This document shows, one piece after another, positions 1 to 10,333 of a stretch of DNA of 64,000 nucleotides (position 1 is the stretch's first letter; each line of letters starts with the position of its first letter). A program made the translations under genes and the position numbers. Below the pieces are notes generated by a model, which searched no databases, was not told where the DNA came from, and saw only the letters and a program-made list of their open reading frames with translations. Source of the stretch: Escherichia phage vB_EcoM_EC001; the sequence record MN445185.1; one strand, written 5' to 3'.

Positions 1-634
1 GCCTGATTGGAGTAAACCGCCGTCAATCACCTCTATCCTGTCACTGACCAGCAAATTGGGGTCGGTGAACGTATATGGGGAGTGGGGAACTCTTAGCACG
101 ACTGATGCTAACTTCCTGGATTACGTGTGGTTACGACACCAGTTCGGTGCCGACCAAGCGTATTACCAGTCTATCAGTGGGAGCTATCGTTCATACACCT
201 ACATCTACACCTCTTCTGGCTTTTGGCCAATCCTGGAGATGTTTGATGTTGCCAATGAACCTGTGCCGTTGATTGACGAAGGTGCAGAACTGACATGGGC
301 ACCGTCCGTGGTTACTCTGACGGACATCTACCAAAATGAATCGCTTCGTGTGGTGCCTATTACGGAAACCTCCGCTGCAGCGAATCCACGTCCGTTAGTT
401 TTCAACACCGACAACACCGAAACTGCCACCCCTGCCTGGCTGCGGGAAGCGTCATCAGACTCACCACGTCCTCTGCTTGCCACGACGGACAATGATGAAC
501 GTGCATATTCCGTCGCGGTAACAGGCATGGCTAGCGTTAAGATTAGACCGATTATTCTCACGACTGACCAAATCGCCCAACCTTCAAAAATTACTCTGGG
601 CGATACTAACGGTGAGTTGGATGGATTCCAATAA
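1..634 (+). CDS. Hypothetical structural protein, 5'-truncated (reading frame open to window start)
   Basis: Frame 2 has no stop from position 2 to 634; the track start at 56 is a TTG. C-terminal motif TNGELDGF is shared with the 9033..9581 product. Confidence 0.5.
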   Translation, partial: PDWSKPPSITSILSLTSKLGSVNVYGEWGTLSTTDANFLDYVWLRHQFGADQAYYQSISGSYRSYTYIYTSSGFWPILEMFDVANEPVPLIDEGAELTWAPSVVTLTDIYQNESLRVVPITETSAAANPRPLVFNTDNTETATPAWLREASSDSPRPLLATTDNDERAYSVAVTGMASVKIRPIILTTDQIAQPSKITLGDTNGELDGFQ

Positions 635-646
635 GAGGTAACGACA

Positions 647-1636
647 ATGGCTTTTACAATTCGTTGGACGAACAATAACCCTGGGGCTTCGACCGTGAAG
701 CTGTACCGCGACACCAAACCTCTGGTGCGTACAGCATTACCTGAACCTCTGGCAACGTTCACTAACGGGGAAACTGAGTATACTGACCGAACAGCGATAC
801 TGGGGACAACGTATTACTACATGACCACTGTGACAGTGGGAAGCCGAACACTGTTCAGTCCGCAGAAATCAATTCTGATTCAGAACCGTCGCGGTATCGG
901 CATCGTGGCTCCACAGTACGGTGATGACCGCTTTGCGTATTACGGGTACGTGGCGTACGGTGAATTACCTAGCGCGGGTGATTATCCGCCAGGGTTTATG
1001 GCCCTTTCTGGATATGACCCAACTGTTAAGCCGGGCTTGATGAAGTTCCAGCTAGACGGTAAAATTCTGTATCTGTTTAGTGGTCTTCGTGTGAACGGCA
1101 ACACACCGTATAGCCGTGATGCGATTTATAACGCGTGTTTGCTGTACGGTGTGGCGGGACCTGGTCCGGAAGGCGGTCATGGCGATTTACCTGACGTTGA
1201 CCAGGCTGGGGAGTTTACGTGGTTGGGTGACCGCTATCGGATGCGCCTGCTGCGCGGTTTAACACTCGACAGTGAAAGCCCGGTCATGACACTCGACGCA
1301 CAGTGGAACGGTAAACTCCATGACGAGTCGCCGTATACTGCCGATAGCGAATACAACCGACTCATCTATGGGATAAGTAGCTGGTTCCCAGAAAAGAAAA
1401 AAGTGATGTCCCTGATAAAGTGGTCGAACACCAGCATATTCGGAAGTGGATCGCTGGTGGCAGGCCGTGGGGCGCATTGTCAGGAGTTTGACCCAGACAG
1501 TAAGTTGGGGCTGACGCGCGGATGGGCGGCGGCGGATTCCACTGATACCGTGGATAACCTCCAGCGTATACAACATGTCCCTGGTGCGACCGTGGGCGGT
1601 ATTTGGATTCCAGTAATCGAGCTTATCGAGGATTAA
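647..1636 (+). CDS. Hypothetical virion protein with FN3-like N-terminal domain
   Basis: RBS GAGGT before ATG 647. N-terminus (STVKLYRDTKP...TEYTD...GTTYYY) has an FN3/Ig-like pattern and is paralogous to the next gene. Confidence 0.55.
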   Translation: MAFTIRWTNNNPGASTVKLYRDTKPLVRTALPEPLATFTNGETEYTDRTAILGTTYYYMTTVTVGSRTLFSPQKSILIQNRRGIGIVAPQYGDDRFAYYGYVAYGELPSAGDYPPGFMALSGYDPTVKPGLMKFQLDGKILYLFSGLRVNGNTPYSRDAIYNACLLYGVAGPGPEGGHGDLPDVDQAGEFTWLGDRYRMRLLRGLTLDSESPVMTLDAQWNGKLHDESPYTADSEYNRLIYGISSWFPEKKKVMSLIKWSNTSIFGSGSLVAGRGAHCQEFDPDSKLGLTRGWAAADSTDTVDNLQRIQHVPGATVGGIWIPVIELIED

Positions 1637-1638
1637 TC

Positions 1639-2538
1639 ATGCCTATTACATTACACTTTGCACAACGGAAGCCACAGGCGCTCGATAACATCGAAATCTA
1701 TCGCAAGACGCCGGGCAACGCCACCATTGATGTTAATGCACCGGGAACGCCTCTGGCAACCCTTCCGGGTGACGCTACATCGTACGAAGACAACGCTGTG
1801 GAAAACAACACCACTTACCGTTATTGGATAGCTGCGGTTAAAGACGGTGAGCGTGTCTTCAACACCCCTACCGCCCAAGGGTTCTTTTTAGACACCGGGC
1901 CTGGCCCCCAGAAGCTGTTATACGGCGACTGGCACGCTGGATACTTTGGAACAGTAACGCCAGCAGAGTTATTCACTAACACGGAACTGAACAGCCTCGT
2001 GGTGAATATGTTCAGTTCCGCCGTTGGTGCCTGGCATAAGTTCATTTACAAAAACCGTATTCTGTTTATGTCCGATAACTCGATAATATACGCTAGCCCG
2101 CAGTTCATTTATAACCAGGGGCTGATGTACGGCCAGGATGGCAACGGATATGTACCGGGCTGGGCTACTGCACGTAACCAACGCCGCACGGTGACGAAAA
2201 ACGGTTACGAATACGTGGTGCGCTTGCCGTATTTGTTCGACTACAAATTCTGGACGTCTTACGTTGGAAGCGGTAACACTGAGTTGTATCTCGACGGTGA
2301 GTGGTTTAACACCTTCGCGCGCCTGTACAACTACAGTGGGCAGTTTCCGCGCTTTGACGACATTCCGGTCGGTCCAATCGATTCGGTTACTGCCCAACAA
2401 TCTGCATTCTTTGCGGCTATGAATAACACGTCCAGTCAGTGGTACAACCGTCCACCTTACCCTGAGTCGCCGTCGTGGAGTAACTACGGTACCACTACAA
2501 TACGCTCCATTGCGGTACTTGAACTCGTTCTGCCTTAA
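1639..2538 (+). CDS. Hypothetical virion protein, paralog of 647..1636
   Basis: ATG 1639 preceded by GAGGA chosen over the overlapping track start 1603. Same N-terminal pattern (IEIYRKTPG...TSYEDNAVENNTTYRYW). Followed by terminator 2590..2617. Confidence 0.55.
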   Translation: MPITLHFAQRKPQALDNIEIYRKTPGNATIDVNAPGTPLATLPGDATSYEDNAVENNTTYRYWIAAVKDGERVFNTPTAQGFFLDTGPGPQKLLYGDWHAGYFGTVTPAELFTNTELNSLVVNMFSSAVGAWHKFIYKNRILFMSDNSIIYASPQFIYNQGLMYGQDGNGYVPGWATARNQRRTVTKNGYEYVVRLPYLFDYKFWTSYVGSGNTELYLDGEWFNTFARLYNYSGQFPRFDDIPVGPIDSVTAQQSAFFAAMNNTSSQWYNRPPYPESPSWSNYGTTTIRSIAVLELVLP

Positions 2539-2589
2539 CAGGAGACTTCATGGGGTTGTATAGCGCACTTTACCATAACAGCTAAAAAT

Positions 2590-2617
2590 AGGCCCTTCGG
2601 GGCCTATTTTCTTTTTT
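2590..2617 (+). terminator. Intrinsic terminator (hairpin AGGCCC-TTCG-GGGCCT plus T-run)
   Basis: Perfect 6-bp GC stem, TTCG loop, followed by ATTTTCTTTTTT. Confidence 0.7.
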
Positions 2618-2628
2618 AGGACGTTGCA

Positions 2629-3948
2629 ATGATCAACTATAACAAACCTGTCATGCAACTGGTTTGGGATCAGATTAATCGTGATAACCCGCAGCTCAAG
2701 AAACCGCTCAACGCAACCAACGTGGCGTTATTACAAGGTCCTTTAACCAATGCCTTGCGCGATGGCCGCAACAGCCGTATCGTGGTAAACGGATTACAGG
2801 GTGGTGGTTACAGCGGTAAGATGGACATCTACTACGACCGCTTAAACCTTTCGCAGTATTTTAAAGGCGTCAGCGTACCGGTTAAAGTACCTTATCGGGC
2901 GACGGTCTACCGCGACATCATCGACCGAATTTCCGCAGCTTGTGGGTTGGTGCTTACTGCTGACGATTTAACGTATCCTGACAGCCAGTTTGCAATGATC
3001 ACTGTGGCAACGGGCGATCGGACGGTGGCGATTAAATCGGATAACCCCGCATTCACGGGTTACATTCCTATTAGCTTTATTCGTGAAGAGCCCAGCTTCG
3101 CCGACTTGTACCACATCACCGAAACTGGGGCTTGGGAACCCATGGATGTTTACAGCACGGTCTATCGACTCGACTGGAGCATGTACACCCAACAGATAAT
3201 CAATATCCCAATGGGTACCCCGCTGCGACTAAACAGTAACTCGTACATGACCCAGTTTATCGCGGCGCTGTCGGCATGGTCGGGCATCCCGTTCACTATC
3301 GGTAATGCTGCTACTGATAACCCGTATGACCTCTATGGGTATGTCGCTACACGCAATAACAACCCAGGCTTAGACCCTGATATGCGTGGGGAGTACAAAT
3401 ACTGCGTGAAGTTGACGCCGCCTGAGGATATGGGTAATCTCCGCCGTCCGTTCTTCTTGCACTTTGGTCCGAAAAATAACGTGGCCTATTTGGCGCAGGA
3501 AGAGGACGTCGAACGTTATGCGCGTTACATGAGGTTCCGGGAAACCAGCCCAAATTCGATGAGCGTCACGTTGTATCAAAACGAGTACGTGTTGACTCGG
3601 GCAGAATCGCCTGAAACAGCGGATGATTTAACGGGTTCCCCGTATGGCACTCGATACTGTACCGGGAGTATTCGACGGCTGATGCAACACGCGTTTCCGA
3701 CCGAAGAGATGTTCCAAGAAAGTATTGCTAACCGGCGTCGGGTACTGTACCACACTGCTTACACCACCACGACATCAGCTACTACTTACCAGGGACTATA
3801 CCGTAACGGATACCAATCCAAACAAATGACGAGCCTCTACTCGAATTACTGTAACTATTTCATCTATTACGACCCAAGCAAAGGCGGCTATATGGTCTAC
3901 AGTCCATATAGCAAAACTGCCCCGGTCCCTTGGTATCCAGCGCTATAG
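2629..3948 (+). CDS. Hypothetical structural protein (tail-fibre-like)
   Basis: 439 aa ORF. C-terminal motif YYDPSKGGYMVYSPYSKTAPVPW is shared with the C-terminus of the 3963..6131 product. Confidence 0.5.
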   Translation: MINYNKPVMQLVWDQINRDNPQLKKPLNATNVALLQGPLTNALRDGRNSRIVVNGLQGGGYSGKMDIYYDRLNLSQYFKGVSVPVKVPYRATVYRDIIDRISAACGLVLTADDLTYPDSQFAMITVATGDRTVAIKSDNPAFTGYIPISFIREEPSFADLYHITETGAWEPMDVYSTVYRLDWSMYTQQIINIPMGTPLRLNSNSYMTQFIAALSAWSGIPFTIGNAATDNPYDLYGYVATRNNNPGLDPDMRGEYKYCVKLTPPEDMGNLRRPFFLHFGPKNNVAYLAQEEDVERYARYMRFRETSPNSMSVTLYQNEYVLTRAESPETADDLTGSPYGTRYCTGSIRRLMQHAFPTEEMFQESIANRRRVLYHTAYTTTTSATTYQGLYRNGYQSKQMTSLYSNYCNYFIYYDPSKGGYMVYSPYSKTAPVPWYPAL

Positions 3949-3962
3949 ACTAAGGTGTCACC

Positions 3963-6131
3963 ATGTCATACACTCCCGATTTAGTGGCGACCGTGATTCG
4001 GTCGCTCAACCGTAAAAACGCGGTCGCCAAAGCAGTAGACCCCGCTAACGTACGCCTGGTGTCCGTGGCGCATCGTGACGAAAAAACCCTAGACGTCACA
4101 CTGACAGGGGGTCCGGGGTATTCAAGTTACGGTCAAATTACGGCCCAAGTCACGAAGCAAAATATTGCTGATTATTTCGCCAAGGTTAAGTTGGATGCCA
4201 TTCCCACTTGTGCGTCCATCCACGAACTGTTGCCGCATTTAGACACTCTACTAGGGATTACCTTTTTAACCGACGACTTTGAAGACCTGCCTATCACTTG
4301 GACAAACAATGCTGCGCGCGTCACGTTCCAGGCGAAACAGACAAGTCTTATCTGGTACGGCAGCCAAACGCTAGATGTGATAAACGGTGACGTGGATATC
4401 AACACTGTCTACACTGTTACCAATATCATTCTCACGCTAAAGGCTGCGAATAAACAGCAGTGGATTAACTTCTACTCTAATGCAACCAAACGGATCGTGG
4501 ATCTTGATAAAGTCGATGTCAGCGCCCCGATGTCCCCGGAGGATATAGGCCAAACCTCTGCGTATAACAGCGTCGTAGCATTGACCGCTAGACCGGGGAG
4601 CGGGATGTTTGGAACGAAGTATGTGTTCTTCTCACGTAACAAACTCGAGACATATGCAGGCAAAACCACATACGTCCCGGATGATTTCACCGGTAGCCTG
4701 CACGATGCTCTGGCCATCGAGACACTCGGCATTCGGAGCGTTTTTGATGTAAACGAAATTGCTCCTGTAGAGAACCTGGCAGGCGAGTGGCCAAGACAAG
4801 TGCAATTGGCACCCGTAGAGGGTTCGTACAAAGTCATGGGCAACGCCACGTTGAATGTGGCACGCTATCAAGATAACGAGCAAACCCTTAACCTGAACTA
4901 CACAACTACGTCGCAACTTTCGGACAGCTACTGGGCCACAACGTTGATCAACCATGCGGCGTGCGGGCGTTTGTTTGTTAACGTGACCGTAGATGCAGGG
5001 GCTTTCGTTTATCGCGACAGCAACCTGAAACCGACGTTCGTTATCGACGAATTGCCGCAAATTGGCGAGGTGGTTTGGAACTTCGTTAACCGGGGAACCA
5101 TTCTTGGTCGTGGTGGTTCTGGTATGGTCTACTCTATGCCTGCGAACACATCAGCGGACGGAGCTGACGCAATCCACATTAGCGATACCTTCCGTGGCAA
5201 AGTCACCATCGAAAACTACGGCACCATCGCCGGTGGTGGGGGTGGGGGCGACTACTATGCGTTTAGCACCACCAAGATCGGTGGAGCTGGTGGTGCGCCT
5301 CTCGGGCCAGGCGCGGCGGTGCCCAGCGGCACCAATAACCGTAACGGCTTAGCTGGGTCCCGTGACAAAGGCGGTGCTACCCAGTTAGTCGTCGAGCAAT
5401 TTACCGGCTACCAGAGTCGCTACTATGGCGGTCCGGGTGGGGATTGGGGCCAGCCGGGACGATATACAGCGTTCGAGCAATGGAACACCCCGGCTACCGG
5501 CTCGCCAGTCTATGTCTACGGTCGTGAAGACGGGATGTCATGGACTCGCCCTGGGATGGCAGGCGAAGCTGTCGGTGGGAATAAAAGTATCGTCAACTGG
5601 GTATCCGTCGGAACGGTGAAACCGAATGTTACCGACGAGTACCAAGAGTTCCTCGACTACCTCGCAGTTTTAGATGCCAATCGACTGGCCAGTGCGGATG
5701 GGATAGATAAAGTCACCGACCCAACCAAGCCTGTAGTTGTGGAGTTCTTAGGTACGATTATTTCAGGTACGCTGTTCAAAAAGCAAAACATACCCGGCGG
5801 TTTGGTGGGAACACCATACGGCGATGCTATAGCCAATTTACCGAGCACCACATTGTTTGGTATCATGGCACACAGTGTATCTGAGTTTGATATTGTGCAC
5901 GACACTTGGCGTTACAACCGTGCGGTAATGTTCACGCTAAAACCCGCGCCTACCGGGACGATTAACCTCGCTGTGGAACGCAACCGGGTGAAATCGGCTA
6001 CCAGTAGTGCACCGGTGGAGAAGTTCTATGTCGATCGCTTCGTGTATTACGATGCGTATCTCGGTAAGATGATGGAATGTAATCCGTATACCAAATCCGC
6101 CCCTAAACCGTGGGTGCGGCCAAAGAAATAG
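3963..6131 (+). CDS. Putative tail fibre/adhesin-like protein with Gly-rich segment
   Basis: 722 aa; GGGGGGDYY...GGAGGAPLGPGAA glycine-rich region; C-terminal PYTKSAPKPW motif paralogous to the previous gene; followed by terminator 6187..6218. Confidence 0.5.
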   Translation: MSYTPDLVATVIRSLNRKNAVAKAVDPANVRLVSVAHRDEKTLDVTLTGGPGYSSYGQITAQVTKQNIADYFAKVKLDAIPTCASIHELLPHLDTLLGITFLTDDFEDLPITWTNNAARVTFQAKQTSLIWYGSQTLDVINGDVDINTVYTVTNIILTLKAANKQQWINFYSNATKRIVDLDKVDVSAPMSPEDIGQTSAYNSVVALTARPGSGMFGTKYVFFSRNKLETYAGKTTYVPDDFTGSLHDALAIETLGIRSVFDVNEIAPVENLAGEWPRQVQLAPVEGSYKVMGNATLNVARYQDNEQTLNLNYTTTSQLSDSYWATTLINHAACGRLFVNVTVDAGAFVYRDSNLKPTFVIDELPQIGEVVWNFVNRGTILGRGGSGMVYSMPANTSADGADAIHISDTFRGKVTIENYGTIAGGGGGGDYYAFSTTKIGGAGGAPLGPGAAVPSGTNNRNGLAGSRDKGGATQLVVEQFTGYQSRYYGGPGGDWGQPGRYTAFEQWNTPATGSPVYVYGREDGMSWTRPGMAGEAVGGNKSIVNWVSVGTVKPNVTDEYQEFLDYLAVLDANRLASADGIDKVTDPTKPVVVEFLGTIISGTLFKKQNIPGGLVGTPYGDAIANLPSTTLFGIMAHSVSEFDIVHDTWRYNRAVMFTLKPAPTGTINLAVERNRVKSATSSAPVEKFYVDRFVYYDAYLGKMMECNPYTKSAPKPWVRPKK

Positions 6132-6186
6132 TTATCATAATTTAACGAGGAACTTGACGGGGTTAAAGCCTGAGAATAACCCATGC

Positions 6187-6218
6187 CCTCTTCCCCACGG
6201 GGAAGAGGCTTTCTTTTT
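6187..6218 (+). terminator. Intrinsic terminator after 3963..6131
   Basis: CCTCTTCCCC / GGGGAAGAGG stem followed by CTTTCTTTTT. Confidence 0.65.
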
Positions 6219-6245
6219 ATGACCCTATCAACGCAGGAGGTTATC

Positions 6246-6836
6246 GTGGTCGATCGTTGGAGTAAAGAGGGCATTATTCGTGCCAAAGTAAACATCGAAG
6301 CCGGTTACGTTAATAACCCGAAAGATTTGGGCAAAGCAACGAACCGCGGTGTCACTGAACTCACAGCGCGTGAATATGGCTATAAAGGGGATATGCGTGA
6401 CCTGAGCCTAGAAACCGCGTTAGACATTTACAACAAGCTCTGGTGGCAGCGGATGCGCTTAGACCAGATTATGAAAATGAATGTCCTGCTAGCTGACCGG
6501 ATGTTTGATTTCGGCATCAACGCAGGTCGCGGTAACTGTATCAAGTCCCTGCAGCGCATTCTGAACGTATTAAACCGTCAGGGTAAACTGTACGACGACA
6601 TCGAAGCAGATGGCGGTATTGGGCCACGTACGTTAACAGCGTTAGAAGGCTTTATCAAAGCCCGTGGGGAAGAGGGCCTGAATCGACTGATATTCGCTTT
6701 AACCTGTCATCAGGTTGCGTACTACACGGAAATCAGTGAAGGGCGTGAGGATAACGAAGAGTTTACTTACGGCTGGTATGGCCGCGTCTATCAGGAAATG
6801 CCAGACTACGTGGCTAAGTTGGGGATGTGTAAATGA
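6246..6836 (+). CDS. Endolysin, GH108-like muramidase with C-terminal peptidoglycan-binding domain
   Basis: EAGYVNNPKDLGKATNRGVT matches the GH108 N-terminal EGGYVNDP.DPGG.T..G signature; DGGIGPRTL and GWYGRVY match the PG_binding_3 pattern. GTG 6246 follows RBS AGGAGG (6235-6240); track start 6183 and ATG 6219 lie inside the upstream terminator hairpin. Confidence 0.75.
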   Translation: MVDRWSKEGIIRAKVNIEAGYVNNPKDLGKATNRGVTELTAREYGYKGDMRDLSLETALDIYNKLWWQRMRLDQIMKMNVLLADRMFDFGINAGRGNCIKSLQRILNVLNRQGKLYDDIEADGGIGPRTLTALEGFIKARGEEGLNRLIFALTCHQVAYYTEISEGREDNEEFTYGWYGRVYQEMPDYVAKLGMCK

Positions 6837-7124
6837 AACAGAATTGGTTTGCTGCCTTAATGAAAGCTATCTGGCGCGCCCTTGTTTTTGCCGCAAGGAG
6901 AAAACGTAATGACCCACCGTCCAACTCCGCCTAAGTTCCCCGAAGTACAAACCGTTCCGGAAACGTATTACGATTCTGGGTTCTTCAAACTATTACGCGC
7001 GATTTTGTGTCGGAGAGTAAAGCCATGCAATACGACAACGACGACTGGCCGAAAGGCTTAATGCCCATTTTACTGGGATTAATGGTCCTCACGATGTTCG
7101 TGCGTTATATGACGTGAGGCCAGT

Positions 7125-7766
7125 ATGGAAGCACTTAAGTATAAGTTGTTAGAGAAGCCGTGGTTTATTCTCACGGATGATTTCCATTTCGAGTTTACGT
7201 TGCGCAGCCTCTATCGTGAACAGACCGGAATGGATGCGATGGTAGCATTATCAGGTGTACATCCGGATACTCCGTTATGGGTAACGGTGCCGAAAGGATT
7301 TGTAACGGACCTGGCAAGCATTCCAGAAGCGTTACGTCCTATCCTGCATCCGGATGGCCCTTGGGCTGCTGCCGCTTGTGTGCATGATTTGTTTTACCAG
7401 AAACGTTCATCGGTAGGCTTTTACCCTGACACCGTTGAAGGTAATCTATCTCGTGCTTGCGACAAAACATTCGCTGACTTGATGTTCTTACGCATCATGG
7501 AGGCATTAGGCGTTGACACCTTTATTCGTAAGTCCTTCTACCATGCCGTTCACGAGTTTGGTTGGCCGTCCTATGTAGACGATAACTCTAAGGTGGTTTA
7601 TAGCCGGCCGGTAGAAAAGACGTTGTCCTATAATCGCAACTACCTGTTCTTTAGAACGTCGCGTACGTTAGCGATTCCTGAACACGAACGTGTTGACATC
7701 ACTAATGGGCAACCGGTAAACGTGCAGTATTTGAATATCAAACGTGCGTTCCTGACTGCCCCTTAA
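7125..7766 (+). CDS. Hypothetical protein
   Basis: 213 aa ORF with RBS GAGG before ATG; no motif recognised with confidence. Confidence 0.5.
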   Translation: MEALKYKLLEKPWFILTDDFHFEFTLRSLYREQTGMDAMVALSGVHPDTPLWVTVPKGFVTDLASIPEALRPILHPDGPWAAAACVHDLFYQKRSSVGFYPDTVEGNLSRACDKTFADLMFLRIMEALGVDTFIRKSFYHAVHEFGWPSYVDDNSKVVYSRPVEKTLSYNRNYLFFRTSRTLAIPEHERVDITNGQPVNVQYLNIKRAFLTAP

Positions 7767-7775
7767 GGAGAGAAA

Positions 7776-8291
7776 ATGTTTCATCCGAATCCTGCCAACT
7801 TCGCGTTAAAAGAGTTGATGCCGCAGGAGTACATCGCGAAATACGGTGAAGGTGCTATTCGTTTCCTTAATCCGTTACTGCTAATCTCGCTCCAACAGAT
7901 TCGTAATCGTTTTGGGCGGATGGTGATTTTAACCAGTTCCCAGCAACAGCGTAGTCTGCGTACCCTGCAGTTCTTTATTAATCAAGAGAAACCAAAGGGT
8001 GGAGATTGGCAAACTCGTGCAAACAAACTGTACGCCGAATCAGGCAGTATGCATAAATTCGGTAATGCGTTTGATGCAACAATGCTCGATACTCCGTTGC
8101 AGAAAGTGCACGATTATATTGCCGCGAACCCTGACGAGTTTCCATTTATTCACTTTATCGAGTGCGATATTACCTGGCTACATGTTGACGTACGCAACCA
8201 ACCTGATATCACCTTCTGGTCACCAACACGTGGTACCGTTAAAGTGGTAAAACAACAACCCATCGATTGGAGCAAGCTAGTTAAAATCTAA
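7776..8291 (+). CDS. Peptidase M15-family peptidoglycan hydrolase (T5-endolysin-like L-alanyl-D-glutamate peptidase)
   Basis: RBS AAGGAG; zinc-ligand motifs H-x6-D (SMHKFGNAFD) and downstream LHVDV closely resemble the T5 endolysin/VanY pattern (HITGDAID ... HVEL). Confidence 0.65.
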   Translation: MFHPNPANFALKELMPQEYIAKYGEGAIRFLNPLLLISLQQIRNRFGRMVILTSSQQQRSLRTLQFFINQEKPKGGDWQTRANKLYAESGSMHKFGNAFDATMLDTPLQKVHDYIAANPDEFPFIHFIECDITWLHVDVRNQPDITFWSPTRGTVKVVKQQPIDWSKLVKI

Positions 8292-8370
8292 GCCACTTTA
8301 ATCAAAAGTAATATCATTTATCATTTGATACGTTTAATGCGCTTAGAGAGCGTTACAGAGCGTTTTAGAG

Positions 8371-8430
8371 GGTAAATAAAGCCCTTACCCACTCCCCTTA
8401 CGGGAGTGGGTAAGCACTATTTATTTTCTT
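8371..8430. terminator. Bidirectional intrinsic terminator between convergent genes
   Basis: 13-bp stem CTTACCCACTCCC / GGGAGTGGGTAAG (8384-8396, 8402-8414), A-rich upstream and T-rich downstream. Confidence 0.7.
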
Positions 8431-8908
8431 CTAACGGAACAATCGTAACCGGGGTAGGAACTTCGTCAATAAAGCCGCCGCTGCAGCGAAAGAACGTCAT
8501 CCCTTTACCTTCCCCGGTATGCGGGTTCACATCCGAAAAAGAGTAAGTGGGGCCATCGTTTACGGTTTTATTAATACGGTAATAACGCTCACCTGTGGTG
8601 GTGTTAACATTCCCGTCGATTTTGCCAATTGTATCTTTAAACATCATCGGTGACTCAAGTTTGCCACCGTCCCACGTTGCTACCCAGTTTGCACCCACAT
8701 CCATTACTGTTACTGACCGCGGCATCATTTGTAGGTTGTCCAGTACCGGACGGTAGTCTATAAACTTCTCCTGTGTCCCTGTGCATGTATAAATCACCAA
8801 GTCGCGATTCTTTACCGGTGTGCTGCTAAATTGTCCGATGTTGCTTGGTGACTGGACGCAACCGGTCAACAGGCTTATAAACGCGAATACGATAAATAGA
8901 CGTTTCAT
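8417..8908 (-). CDS. Lipoprotein (signal peptide with lipobox LTGC)
   Basis: N-terminus MKRLFIVFAFISLLTGC; isolated minus-strand gene between a bidirectional terminator and a divergent intergenic region. Confidence 0.65.
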   Translation of the reverse strand: MKRLFIVFAFISLLTGCVQSPSNIGQFSSTPVKNRDLVIYTCTGTQEKFIDYRPVLDNLQMMPRSVTVMDVGANWVATWDGGKLESPMMFKDTIGKIDGNVNTTTGERYYRINKTVNDGPTYSFSDVNPHTGEGKGMTFFRCSGGFIDEVPTPVTIVPLEENK

Positions 8909-9032
8909 AAGGTATCCTTTCAGTGGTAAAAACTTTCTCGTTTAACAGCCAACTTTACTGTCATATTAAGCCCACTATGTATTTTTTAGAATGATTTAGT
9001 ATGCACCACAAACCTACTATAAGGAAACAACC

Positions 9033-9581
9033 ATGGCAGTCATCTCTGCAAAAGACCAACTCGTCGCGCTGTTTAATGCCGCAAACAGCGGACTGCCTAG
9101 TCCGTTAACTGCTGCTGACGTTACATTCGGCGCTGTTGCTGACTATTCACCAGCTGATTCTGGAGACACTCGCAACTCCAAACTCACCATCACCGCCACC
9201 GCGGAATCCGCTAACTTTACTGGCGAGAAAGAGCTGCATTATACCCGCCTCAATTTATCGGACTTCATCGGTGCGAAAGCAGTGACCGCTGACCAGGCAG
9301 AATGGGATACCGATGAAGAAGTGCTTGCTTTTGTCAACGCAGAACTATTTGGCGACGGTGAAACGGAAGATCCGTTTGCGTTGTCTGAACTCACCATTTC
9401 ACGCGAAGACGGCAGCAGTGGTGAGAAAGTCATCACTGTTATGGTGAAAGAAGGCCACATTAAATTCCAACCTGTCAGCCTTGGAGTTTATACTGTAACG
9501 CAGCCAATCGTTAAAACTGACCTGAGCACCACCAACGGTGAACTGGGCGGATTCGGCGGCGAAGGTCACGCTGGCATGTAA
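9033..9581 (+). CDS. Hypothetical protein
   Basis: RBS AAGGAA; C-terminal TTNGELGGF motif resembles the C-terminus of the 1..634 product. Confidence 0.5.
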   Translation: MAVISAKDQLVALFNAANSGLPSPLTAADVTFGAVADYSPADSGDTRNSKLTITATAESANFTGEKELHYTRLNLSDFIGAKAVTADQAEWDTDEEVLAFVNAELFGDGETEDPFALSELTISREDGSSGEKVITVMVKEGHIKFQPVSLGVYTVTQPIVKTDLSTTNGELGGFGGEGHAGM

Positions 9582-9610
9582 CAGAGCAATTAGTAGTTTC
9601 TAAGAAATAA

Positions 9611-9657
9611 ATAAAAGGTACCTACCTCCCTTCGGGGAGGTAGGGCCTTTATTTTCT
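9611..9657. terminator. Bidirectional intrinsic terminator (end of minus-strand operon and of 9033..9581)
   Basis: CCTACCTCCC-TTCG-GGGAGGTAGG hairpin flanked by A-run and T-run. Confidence 0.7.
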
Positions 9658-9661
9658 TTGC

Positions 9662-10333
9662 TTACATGCCGAGTGATTCGGACAATGTTTTTAATCCAGT
9701 GTAATCGCGCTTTTCAGCTAACTCACGGATTTGGCGTTTGTTATCTGCCATTGCTGAGTGCAACACCTGGTCGCGTGCAACAATAGCGGCCAACAACGCT
9801 TTACATTGGTCTACTGTAAACGGACTGTGCTTCGTATTCAGCGTATCGAGCCAGTATTCTGGTGCGGTATCTGCCTGAATGTATTGACCGAGGATGGTAC
9901 GCGACGATTCATCGGCTTGAAAGTGACTACCTTCAAACTCGATATAACCATGACGCTCATCTTCGTAGCGATGGTCAAGTTCCAACAGCATCTTCTGCAC
10001 GTCTTCGTAAATGTAACGTGCGGTAGATTTCAGATTCCCGCGAATTTCGTCGAGGTCAATCTCCAGCACATTAGCAATAAACTCTTTCGTGCGTTTCAAT
10101 GTGAATTTAGCTTCAATCTCCGACATCTCATACAGCTTCATGCGTGCCAGGGCTTCTTTATCAGACATCCCTTCGATGAGATGATAATGGAGCAGAGCGC
10201 AAAAGCCTGTACGGCCCTGATCCTGCGCACCGATTCGTTCCATGAAATTACCGTGACGATCAATCGGCAAATCACGCTGGAAATAACGGGCGCGGATCTC
10301 TTCGTTCGTTAAGCTTTTGTCAGTAACAGACAT
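9662..10333 (-). CDS. Hypothetical protein (last gene of the minus-strand operon)
   Basis: 223 aa ORF ending just before bidirectional terminator 9611..9657; no recognisable motif. Confidence 0.5.
   Translation of the reverse strand: MSVTDKSLTNEEIRARYFQRDLPIDRHGNFMERIGAQDQGRTGFCALLHYHLIEGMSDKEALARMKLYEMSEIEAKFTLKRTKEFIANVLEIDLDEIRGNLKSTARYIYEDVQKMLLELDHRYEDERHGYIEFEGSHFQADESSRTILGQYIQADTAPEYWLDTLNTKHSPFTVDQCKALLAAIVARDQVLHSAMADNKRQIRELAEKRDYTGLKTLSESLGM

What the first reader, a model, noticed from the sequence alone, without database searches (positions are those of the whole stretch)
1..9581. Shared C-terminal TNGEL.GF motif in two otherwise different plus-strand proteins
The truncated first gene ends ...ITLGDTNGELDGFQ and the 9033..9581 product ends ...LSTTNGELGGFGGEGHAGM. 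A conserved C-terminal tag may be a docking or chaperone-recognition peptide.
Basis: seen in the sequence. Interest (0 to 1): 0.25.

Follow-up and report, generated by a model that had tools for sequence, protein, structure and literature searches.

The report
Conserved C-terminal docking tag, DUF7941 proteins
The shared TNGEL.GF ending is real and strongly conserved: it is the short linker motif of a jumbo-phage virion protein family (DUF7941), which recent work predicts plugs one subunit into the next to build filaments, so it is an interesting detail of a recently described system, not a new one.

Summary
The window is an SPN3US-like jumbo phage (Seoulvirus).

The two proteins are not "otherwise different". 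Both are DUF7941 (PF25613) proteins of SPN3US "paralog family B": gene 1 is the gp148 ortholog and the 182-aa ORF is the gp160 ortholog.

- **Conservation.** The tag K-x-x-L-x3-[ND]-G-E-L-x-G-F is kept in all 60 orthologs of the 182-aa protein (down to 46% identity) and in all 17 gp148-type ("A-type") proteins (28-57% identity). The roughly 110-residue proline-rich tail before it is hypervariable and predicted disordered.
- **Origin.** Profile alignment places the tag column for column on the linker motif (T-N-T-x-L-D-G-L-x-Y-P) that follows the N-terminal domain (NTD) in canonical DUF7941 proteins.
- **Mechanism in the literature.** A 2026 Goslar preprint predicts with AlphaFold 3, and partly shows by EM, that this linker docks on the next protomer's NTD to form head-to-tail filaments.

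Best reading: a trans-docking peptide. In the 182-aa protein it follows the NTD directly, as in Goslar gp23. In the A-type protein it sits after a lectin-like domain and a flexible tether.

Docking itself was not tested here. No evidence supports chaperone recognition. This is a modest variant of a known kind.

The parts
2..631 (+). The last 210 codons of an 'A-type' DUF7941 virion protein, the ortholog of SPN3US gp148 (ACQ60_gp118, 498 aa). The gene is cut by the window start; the stop codon is at 632-634.
   Evidence: Translation. 207 of 210 residues are identical to SPN3US gp148. The full-length ortholog matches PF25613 at 2e-29 and phrog_3589.
266..586 (+). Proline-rich, hypervariable tether predicted to be disordered (residues 377-483 of the 498-aa protein). 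It contains three repeats of about 27 aa centred on (P/I)RP(L/I)..TTD.
   Evidence: AF2 gives pLDDT below 50 for residues 377-498. Mean pairwise identity is 23% here, against 48% in the NTD and 59% in the tag. Alignment.
587..628 (+). C-terminal tag KITLGDTNGELDGF (residues 484-497), followed by one residue (Q) and the stop codon.
   Evidence: Conserved in all 17 A-type homologs, with L494 and F497 invariant. It is the top hit of the canonical-linker PSSM in the whole window, score 17.7.
9033..9581 (+). 182-aa DUF7941 protein made of the NTD plus the linker tag only. It is the ortholog of SPN3US gp160 (ACQ60_gp106) and has the same architecture as Goslar gp23.
   Evidence: PF25613 at 1.9e-12 and phrog_4862 at 6e-70. 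hhalign against canonical DUF7941: probability 99.2%, E 1.5e-18. AF2 mean pLDDT 86.5. SPN3US proteomics for gp160.
9513..9554 (+). Tag KTDLSTTNGELGGF (residues 161-174), directly after the last NTD strand.
   Evidence: It aligns on the linker motif of canonical paralogs. PSSM score 14.9, the second-best hit in the window. pLDDT is 89 for residues 161-170.
9555..9578 (+). Variable extension GGEGHAGM after the tag. Orthologs carry 0-12 unrelated residues here.
   Evidence: 11% identity in this stretch.
647..2538 (+). Two genes that follow the A-type gene in each module (647-1636 and 1639-2538), orthologs of SPN3US gp149 and gp150. Each has an FN3-like N-terminus and the same domain as the A-type central domain. 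Neither carries the tag.
   Evidence: phrog_1062 matches, paralog endings, genome-wide motif search.
2629..6131 (+). Two more DUF7941 genes in the same cluster. 2629-3948 is gp154-like. 3963-6131 is gp155-like, with two NTD copies and a Gp38-adhesin-like glycine-rich domain. Neither ends in the tag.
   Evidence: PF25613 at 2.8e-25 and 1.6e-23, PF05268 at 9e-19. Two NTD units in the SPN3US ortholog.

Best explanation
Both proteins belong to the chimallivirus DUF7941 family (SPN3US 'paralog family B'). The shared ending K-x-x-L-x3-[ND]-G-E-L-x-G-F is that family's linker motif. In canonical ~280-aa members the motif sits between the N-terminal domain (NTD) and the C-terminal domain.

The 182-aa protein has lost the C-terminal domain, so the motif ends the protein. 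This is the Goslar gp23 architecture. In the A-type protein (gene 1), a C-type-lectin-like domain and a disordered proline-rich tether of about 110 residues separate the NTD from the motif.

Shown here:
- the motif is real and under purifying selection;
- it is homologous to the family linker;
- the tether is predicted to be disordered.

Inferred:
- the tag works in trans, docking on the NTD of another DUF7941 protomer (head-to-tail);
- the abundant 182-aa protein can therefore polymerise;
- the lectin-bearing A-type proteins, which carry almost the same tag, can plug into the same acceptor site and load binding domains onto the filaments.
For: **Conservation**
- All 60 orthologs of the 182-aa protein carry the motif in relaxed form, and 44 carry a strict [ND]GEL.GF. 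All 17 A-type proteins carry it in relaxed form, 12 in strict form.
- Tag identity is 79% against 52-62% for the rest of the 182-aa family. In the A-type family it is 59% against 23% for the preceding tail.
- The tags differ at synonymous codon positions, so this is selection on the protein and not recent gene conversion.

**Family membership**
- Pfam DUF7941 matches both proteins.

**Tag equals linker**
- MAFFT and global hhalign (probability 99.2%, E 1.5e-18) place KtDLStTnGELdgF on the canonical consensus vt.t.L.gl.YP.
- A PSSM of the linker was built from 113 family representatives, excluding SPN3US's seven canonical paralogs. Its two best hits in the whole window are the two tags. In SPN3US two of the four tags score 16.5, where 0.08 null hits per scan are expected. 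The other two score within the range chance gives: 13.7 (1.4 expected) and 11.0 (9.8 expected).
- The same scan found further NTD-plus-linker-only members: gp237, gp83 and gp91. Pfam confirmed gp237 and gp83.

**Polymer logic**
- Some family representatives are covalent NTD-linker-NTD-linker-NTD chains.
- The Goslar preprint reports AlphaFold 3 head-to-tail dimers for gp22, gp23 and phiKZ gp126-gp127, and filaments of purified gp22 by negative-stain EM.
- Goslar gp23 ends ...VLADNVADGFVKPTVSVVG.
- SPN3US gp160 is one of the most abundant virion proteins, as is Goslar gp23 at about 2,140 copies.
Against: - Docking was not observed here. Only single-chain AF2 was available.
- In the A-type model the tag is not docked on anything (pLDDT 36-39). 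The alignment behind that model has only 17 sequences.
- In the 182-aa monomer the tag region is modelled with confidence (pLDDT 89 for residues 161-170). That could mean it packs on its own NTD in cis.
- For the A-type proteins, homology of the tag to the linker rests on its near-identity to the gp160 tag and on PSSM scores, not on a collinear alignment.
- The preprint's model is itself mostly prediction. It also places the filaments on the baseplate, whereas SPN3US proteomics finds gp148 and gp160 in tailless heads at full level (head/WT 1.18 and 1.23).
Confidence: 0.6

Rival explanations
1. The motif is a cis-acting structural element. It packs on and completes or caps the NTD of the same chain, and is conserved for folding or stability rather than for joining subunits.
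For: In the AF2 monomer of the 182-aa protein, residues 161-170 have pLDDT 89. The motif always follows an NTD closely in canonical members.
Against: - In A-type proteins the motif lies about 330 residues from the NTD, at the end of a predicted disordered tether, and AF2 does not dock it in cis.
- The tags are nearly identical on paralogs whose NTDs share only about 27% identity.
- A monomer prediction can only show cis packing, and such predictions often mimic a trans contact.
- The AF3 dimers in the preprint put the linker on the neighbouring NTD.
Confidence: 0.2
2. The tag is a recognition or sorting signal read by a different partner. Candidates are the nearby DUF1353 'tail assembly chaperone' (7125-7766), a capsid-attachment site, or the two proteins encoded after each A-type gene.
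For: - A non-virion chaperone-like gene lies in the cluster (SPN3US gp157 is 'Non-virion').
- Both checked SPN3US proteins with the NGEL.GF tag (gp148, gp160) are in the head fraction, together with gp145 and gp151 as listed. The NTD-plus-linker-only proteins with divergent motifs (gp237, gp91) are in the tail fraction.
Against: - Canonical paralogs without a C-terminal tag (gp138-144) are also in the head fraction, so the tag does not decide location.
- The motif is internal in canonical and tandem-array members.
- The 182-aa gene has no neighbouring module genes.
- No data link the tag to DUF1353.
Confidence: 0.12
3. The match is chance, or a by-product of recent recombination between paralogs, and has no function.
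For: The motif is short (7 fixed residues). The region is full of paralogs, and whole modules are gained and lost.
Against: - About 1e-4 hits are expected by chance, and none of 300 shuffles reached the observed match.
- The motif is conserved across Salmonella, Erwinia and Cronobacter phages while flanking sequence diverges.
- Synonymous differences between the copies rule out recent gene conversion.
Confidence: 0.02

Closest known systems
Chimallivirus DUF7941 (PF25613) proteins: Goslar gp22/gp23 and phiKZ gp126/gp127 (bioRxiv 10.64898/2026.04.21.720040; Nat Commun 2026, PMC13250141; PDB 9xqd chain 0)
   Same: - Same NTD-then-linker order.
- The 182-aa protein has the gp23 architecture (NTD plus linker, about 180 aa, very abundant in virions).
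- The proposed mechanism is the preprint's head-to-tail model, in which the linker docks on the next NTD.
   Different: - As far as I read it, the preprint describes a 'disordered linker' and does not name a motif. Here the conserved core is defined as T-N-x-E-L-x-G-F, with family consensus T-N-T-x-L-D-G-L-x-Y-P.
- In the A-type protein the motif is not next to the NTD. It lies after a lectin-like domain and a ~110-aa tether, at the extreme C-terminus.
- Similarity of the 182-aa protein to Goslar gp23 is detectable only over the N-terminal ~70 residues (29% identity), so orthology is not shown.
- SPN3US proteomics places these proteins with heads, not the baseplate.
SPN3US 'paralog family B' (Thomas and co-workers; PMC5694885, PMC10052503)
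   Same: Gene 1 and the 182-aa ORF are the orthologs of SPN3US gp148 and gp160. Both are listed as family B virion proteins, and gp160 is among the most abundant.
   Different: Those papers assign no function (gp160 is marked 'Head ejection?') and, in the passages I read, do not describe the C-terminal motif. They classify the proteins as head components.
Donor-strand exchange in chaperone-usher pili (analogy only, from general knowledge)
   Same: Head-to-tail polymerisation in which a short terminal peptide of one subunit occupies a site on the next subunit. Different subunits sharing one peptide type allow mixed fibres and tip adhesins.
   Different: No sequence or fold relationship. The pilus peptide is N-terminal and completes an Ig fold with help from a periplasmic chaperone. 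Nothing of that kind was shown here.
Branched tailspike and tail-fibre adaptor systems (phage G7C gp63.1/gp66, CBA120 TSP1-4; from general knowledge)
   Same: Several receptor-binding proteins are hung on one virion through small conserved docking modules.
   Different: Those systems use folded N-terminal adaptor domains on trimeric spikes attached to the baseplate. Here the element is an 8-14-residue linear peptide on proteins not known to be trimers.

Membership tests
DUF7941 (PF25613) chimallivirus virion proteins | Match to the Pfam model above its gathering score (27 bits) | tested here: met
   The 182-aa protein scores 47.7 bits. The full-length ortholog of gene 1 (207/210 identical over the part in the window) scores 103.3 bits. 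The NTD of gene 1 itself lies outside the window.
DUF7941 (PF25613) chimallivirus virion proteins | NTD fold as in the solved phiKZ gp127 NTD (9xqd_0) | tested here: met
   [not shown]
DUF7941 (PF25613) chimallivirus virion proteins | Linker motif directly after the NTD | tested here: met
   Met for the 182-aa protein. For the A-type protein the motif is present but displaced to the C-terminus. At the canonical position only 'YP' followed by SGPG remains.
DUF7941 (PF25613) chimallivirus virion proteins | C-terminal globular domain (profile positions ~175-276) | tested here: not met
   HMM coverage stops at profile position 150 (A-type) and 167 (182-aa). The preprint accepts Goslar gp23, which also lacks this domain, as a member, so this feature is not obligatory.
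DUF7941 (PF25613) chimallivirus virion proteins | Head-to-tail oligomerisation through the linker | not testable with these tools
Indirect support comes from covalent tandem NTD-linker arrays in the family.
SPN3US paralog family B | Orthology to listed members and presence in purified virions | tested here: met
   The window is 97.7% identical to SPN3US over 1-10000. The numbering map is gp = 266 minus the ACQ60 number. gp148 and gp160 are listed as family B with high PSM counts.
Signal recognised by a tail-fibre assembly chaperone | Dependence on, or binding to, a chaperone such as the DUF1353 protein | not testable with these tools
   No data. The motif is internal in many family members, which argues against a signal read from a free C-terminus.
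Prohead-protease substrate or capsid-targeting sequence | A-x-E cleavage motif, or listed processing by gp245 | tested here: not met
   The tag has no A-x-E. gp148 and gp160 are not among the eight processed head proteins listed in the 2017 paper.

The most novel reading that the evidence does not exclude
The near-identical tag on four paralogs with divergent NTDs (gp145, gp148, gp151, gp160) is a universal plug for one common acceptor site. The very abundant 182-aa protein would build a filament, and the lectin-bearing A-type proteins would compete for the same sites through ~110-residue flexible tethers. The result would be a mixed, branched fibre coat. According to SPN3US proteomics this coat stays with tailless heads, so it may be a capsid-anchored host-capture coat rather than a baseplate organelle.
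Probability: 0.2. Interest if true: 0.55.

Novelty: new variant of a known kind. Interest (0 to 1): 0.3.

Why it matters
DUF7941 proteins make up a large share of the virion mass in chimalliviruses: about 2,500 copies in Goslar, and some twenty paralogs in SPN3US. Their function is still open.

Reducing the proposed subunit-to-subunit contact to an 8-14-residue peptide with two invariant residues (L and F) makes the filament model cheap to test with peptides, point mutants and tag deletions. It also gives a simple rule for spotting family members that can join filaments, including truncated and cargo-carrying ones.

The work also exposes a conflict worth resolving. The tagged proteins carry lectin-like and adhesin-like domains, yet in SPN3US they purify with tailless heads. 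In phiKZ and Goslar the family is placed on the baseplate.

Tried and rejected
- **Chance match:** rejected by shuffling and by conservation.
- **Recent gene conversion between the two genes:** rejected, because the copies differ at synonymous positions.
- **HMMER detection of the A-type tag as a separate DUF7941 stretch:** failed because the tag is too short. A linker PSSM with an empirical null was used instead.
- **Profile search with the A-type alignment for more distant A-type proteins:** it found only one new sequence.
- **Foldseek of the 182-aa model against the PDB:** no meaningful hit.
- **AF2 of the A-type monomer, to see whether the tag docks in cis:** it did not. This is uninformative about trans docking.
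- **Covariation between the gp160-type and A-type tags from the same contig** (for example P0061/P0087, P0037/P0071, P0040/P0077): inspected by eye. No matched changes were seen, so the shared-acceptor idea gets neither support nor refutation.
- **Protease-site and capsid-targeting readings:** rejected.
- **Scrambled SPFM-phage protein records** (P0064-69, P0073-76, P0085, P0091-94): excluded as annotation artefacts.
Full report
**What the window is.** Bases 1-10000 match SPN3US-like jumbo phages (genus Seoulvirus). Identity is 97.7% to Salmonella phage SPN3US, with one 3.4-kb block missing from the window, and the region is collinear with Escherichia phage vB_EcoM_Lh1B. SPN3US gene numbers in the literature equal 266 minus the RefSeq ACQ60 number. 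Gene 1 is therefore the 3' part of the gp148 ortholog (ACQ60_gp118, 498 aa; 207 of 210 residues identical). ORF 9033-9581 is the gp160 ortholog (ACQ60_gp106).

**Checking the observation.** TNGEL.GF occurs only at 605-628 and 9531-9554 in six-frame translation of the whole window. About 1e-4 occurrences are expected from composition. None of 300 shuffles of all 110 long ORFs produced a tail matching 7 of 8 residues. At the DNA level the copies differ at synonymous positions (GAG TTG against GAA CTG, TTC against TTT), so the match is maintained at the protein level and is not a recent DNA copy.

**The two proteins are paralogs.** Both carry the N-terminal domain (NTD) of Pfam DUF7941: 103 bits for full-length gp148 and 47.7 bits for the 182-aa protein, against a cut-off of 27. 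The products of 2629-3948 and 3963-6131 are also DUF7941 proteins. The second has two NTD copies and a Gp38-adhesin-like domain.

**The same ending in other paralogs.** In SPN3US, four proteins end with the motif:
- gp145: ...KTTLTSLNGELDGFK
- gp148: ...KITLGDTNGELDGFQ
- gp151: ...KTDLATANGELNGF
- gp160: ...KTDLSTTNGELDGFV

The window lacks the gp151 module.

**Conservation.**
- Sixty orthologs of the 182-aa protein, from Salmonella, Erwinia and Cronobacter phages and from metagenomes, were aligned. They share down to 46% identity with the window protein.
- All 60 carry the motif within the last 25 residues. Forty-four carry a strict [ND]GEL.GF. Most are followed by 0-9 unrelated residues.
- All 17 full-length gp148-type ("A-type") proteins (28-57% identity) end in the motif, with L494 and F497 invariant.
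- Mean pairwise identity in the 182-aa family is 79% in the tag and 52-62% in the rest.
- In the A-type family it is 59% in the tag and 23% in the ~110 residues before it.

**Anatomy.**
- AF2 models the 182-aa protein as one compact domain (mean pLDDT 86.5). The tag directly follows the last strand. pLDDT is 89 for residues 161-170 and 71 for 171-180.
- AF2 models the A-type protein as two folded domains (residues 1-376, pLDDT mostly 80-95) followed by a tail with pLDDT below 50 from 377 to the end, tag included.
- The tail is proline-rich, with three (P/I)RP(L/I)..TTD repeats.

**What the tag is.**
- The seven canonical ~280-aa paralogs just upstream of the window (SPN3US gp138-144) have a similar motif between their NTD and C-terminal domain, for example VVTNTELSGLLYP and VVTQTKLDGLVYP.
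- MAFFT aligns the 182-aa tag on it.
- Across 120 diverse canonical members (113 family representatives plus the seven SPN3US paralogs) the linker consensus is L..[VL][VIL]-T-[NV]-T-x-L-[DP]-G-[LF]-x-Y-P.
- Global hhalign of the 182-aa family against these canonical members gives probability 99.2% and E 1.5e-18. It places KtDLStTnGELdgF on vt.t.L.gl.YP column for column.
- A PSSM of the linker core, trained without SPN3US's seven canonical paralogs, gives the two tags as its two best hits in the entire window (17.7 and 14.9).
- In SPN3US the gp148 and gp160 tags score 16.5, where shuffles give 0.08 hits per scan. The gp145 and gp151 tags score 13.7 and 11.0, within the range chance gives.
- The same scan found further members that are NTD plus linker only: gp237 (...LITVTELNGLVYDVSDMAQA), gp83 (...LVTKRALDGFRPGEFLNG) and gp91. 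Pfam confirmed the first two.

**How it most likely works.**
- A 2026 preprint on phage Goslar reports that DUF7941 proteins are among the most abundant virion proteins: gp23 at about 2,140 copies and gp22 at about 580.
- AlphaFold 3 there predicts head-to-tail oligomers in which one protomer's "disordered linker" binds the NTD of the next. This includes gp23, which lacks the C-terminal domain. Purified gp22 forms filaments in negative-stain EM.
- Goslar gp23 (180 aa) ends ...VLADNVADGFVKPTVSVVG.
- SPN3US gp160 is likewise among the most abundant virion proteins.
- The family library contains covalent NTD-linker-NTD-linker-NTD chains, with the motif a few residues before each following NTD. 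Some also carry repeated L-D-G-G-like peptides at the C-terminus.
- I therefore read the tag as the trans-docking "tail" of the head-to-tail module.
- The four SPN3US tags are nearly identical although their NTDs are only about 27% identical. This suggests one common acceptor site. That last step is inference.

**What is not shown.**
- No multimer prediction or binding test could be run.
- The A-type tag is not docked in cis in AF2.
- The confident placement of the tag in the 182-aa monomer is equally compatible with cis packing.
- The location of the assembly is unresolved. phiKZ gp127 sits in the outer peripheral baseplate, and the preprint proposes baseplate-anchored fibres.
- In contrast, SPN3US gp148, gp160 and nearly all family B members are found at full level in tailless heads of a tail-tube amber mutant (head/WT 1.18 and 1.23). 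gp237 and gp91 behave as tail proteins.

**Verdict.** The "docking peptide" reading is the best supported, and the "chaperone-recognition" reading has no support. Both proteins are close orthologs of catalogued SPN3US proteins in a family whose assembly principle was proposed in 2026. The added value is the definition of the motif and of a cargo-inserted, tethered variant. Interest is modest.

Noticed in passing
window 1-2538, compared with L001 1769-11907: SPN3US has three tandem three-gene modules (an A-type DUF7941 gene followed by two genes with an FN3-like N-terminus). The window has lost the third module (gp151-153, about 3.4 kb), as has phage Lh1B. Whole modules are therefore gained and lost between close relatives.
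   Followed up: partly
window 2629-3948 and 3963-6131: These two DUF7941 proteins share a different C-terminal domain of about 120 aa (phrog_6409). They end in a second shared motif: ...YSPYSKTAPVPWYPAL and ...CNPYTKSAPKPWVRPKK.
   Followed up: no
window 3963-6131: This 722-aa protein combines two DUF7941 NTD copies with a Gp38-adhesin-like glycine-rich domain (PF05268, 9e-19). Its SPN3US ortholog gp155 is classed as a head protein by mass spectrometry (head/WT 0.89), which is odd for an adhesin.
   Followed up: partly
window 266-586: The disordered tail of the A-type protein has three repeats of about 27 aa centred on (P/I)RP(L/I)..TTD. The prolines are conserved across homologs (P432 and P471). 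They may be further short binding motifs, possibly for the two proteins encoded after each A-type gene.
   Followed up: no
SPN3US (L007 2364-2915 minus strand; L004 32918-33445; L004 37749-38366): Three more small proteins consist of an NTD plus the linker motif at or near the C-terminus: gp237, gp83 and gp91. gp237 and gp91 are tail-fraction proteins and gp83 is head-fraction. gp91 has two motif copies and is not recognised by Pfam DUF7941.
   Followed up: partly
proteins P0097, P0100-P0102, P0119, P0120, P0128, P0130, P0133: These family representatives have two or three covalently fused NTD-linker units. Several end in repeated short peptides such as LLDGGGNLLLDGGGQLL or ITGFDDQPLTGFDGEPITFFD, which look like multiple tag copies.
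   Followed up: partly
proteins P0064-P0069, P0073-P0076, P0085, P0091-P0094 (Salmonella phages SPFM1-SPFM20): The GenBank proteins of the SPFM phages at these loci look like scrambled mosaics of short N-terminal fragments. This is probably an annotation or assembly artefact, and they were excluded from all alignments.
   Followed up: no
window 6219-8291: Between the DUF7941 genes lie a GH108 plus PG_binding_3 endolysin (6219-6836), a DUF1353 'tail assembly chaperone' (7125-7766; its SPN3US ortholog is non-virion) and a peptidase-M15-like or endolysin-like protein (7776-8291).
   Followed up: no
window 9555-9578: After the tag the window protein carries GGEGHAGM, where SPN3US has a single V. 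Close relatives show other endings (DGNGHAFV, GGDAFV, VSNAGM, GIPN), so this extension turns over quickly.
   Followed up: partly
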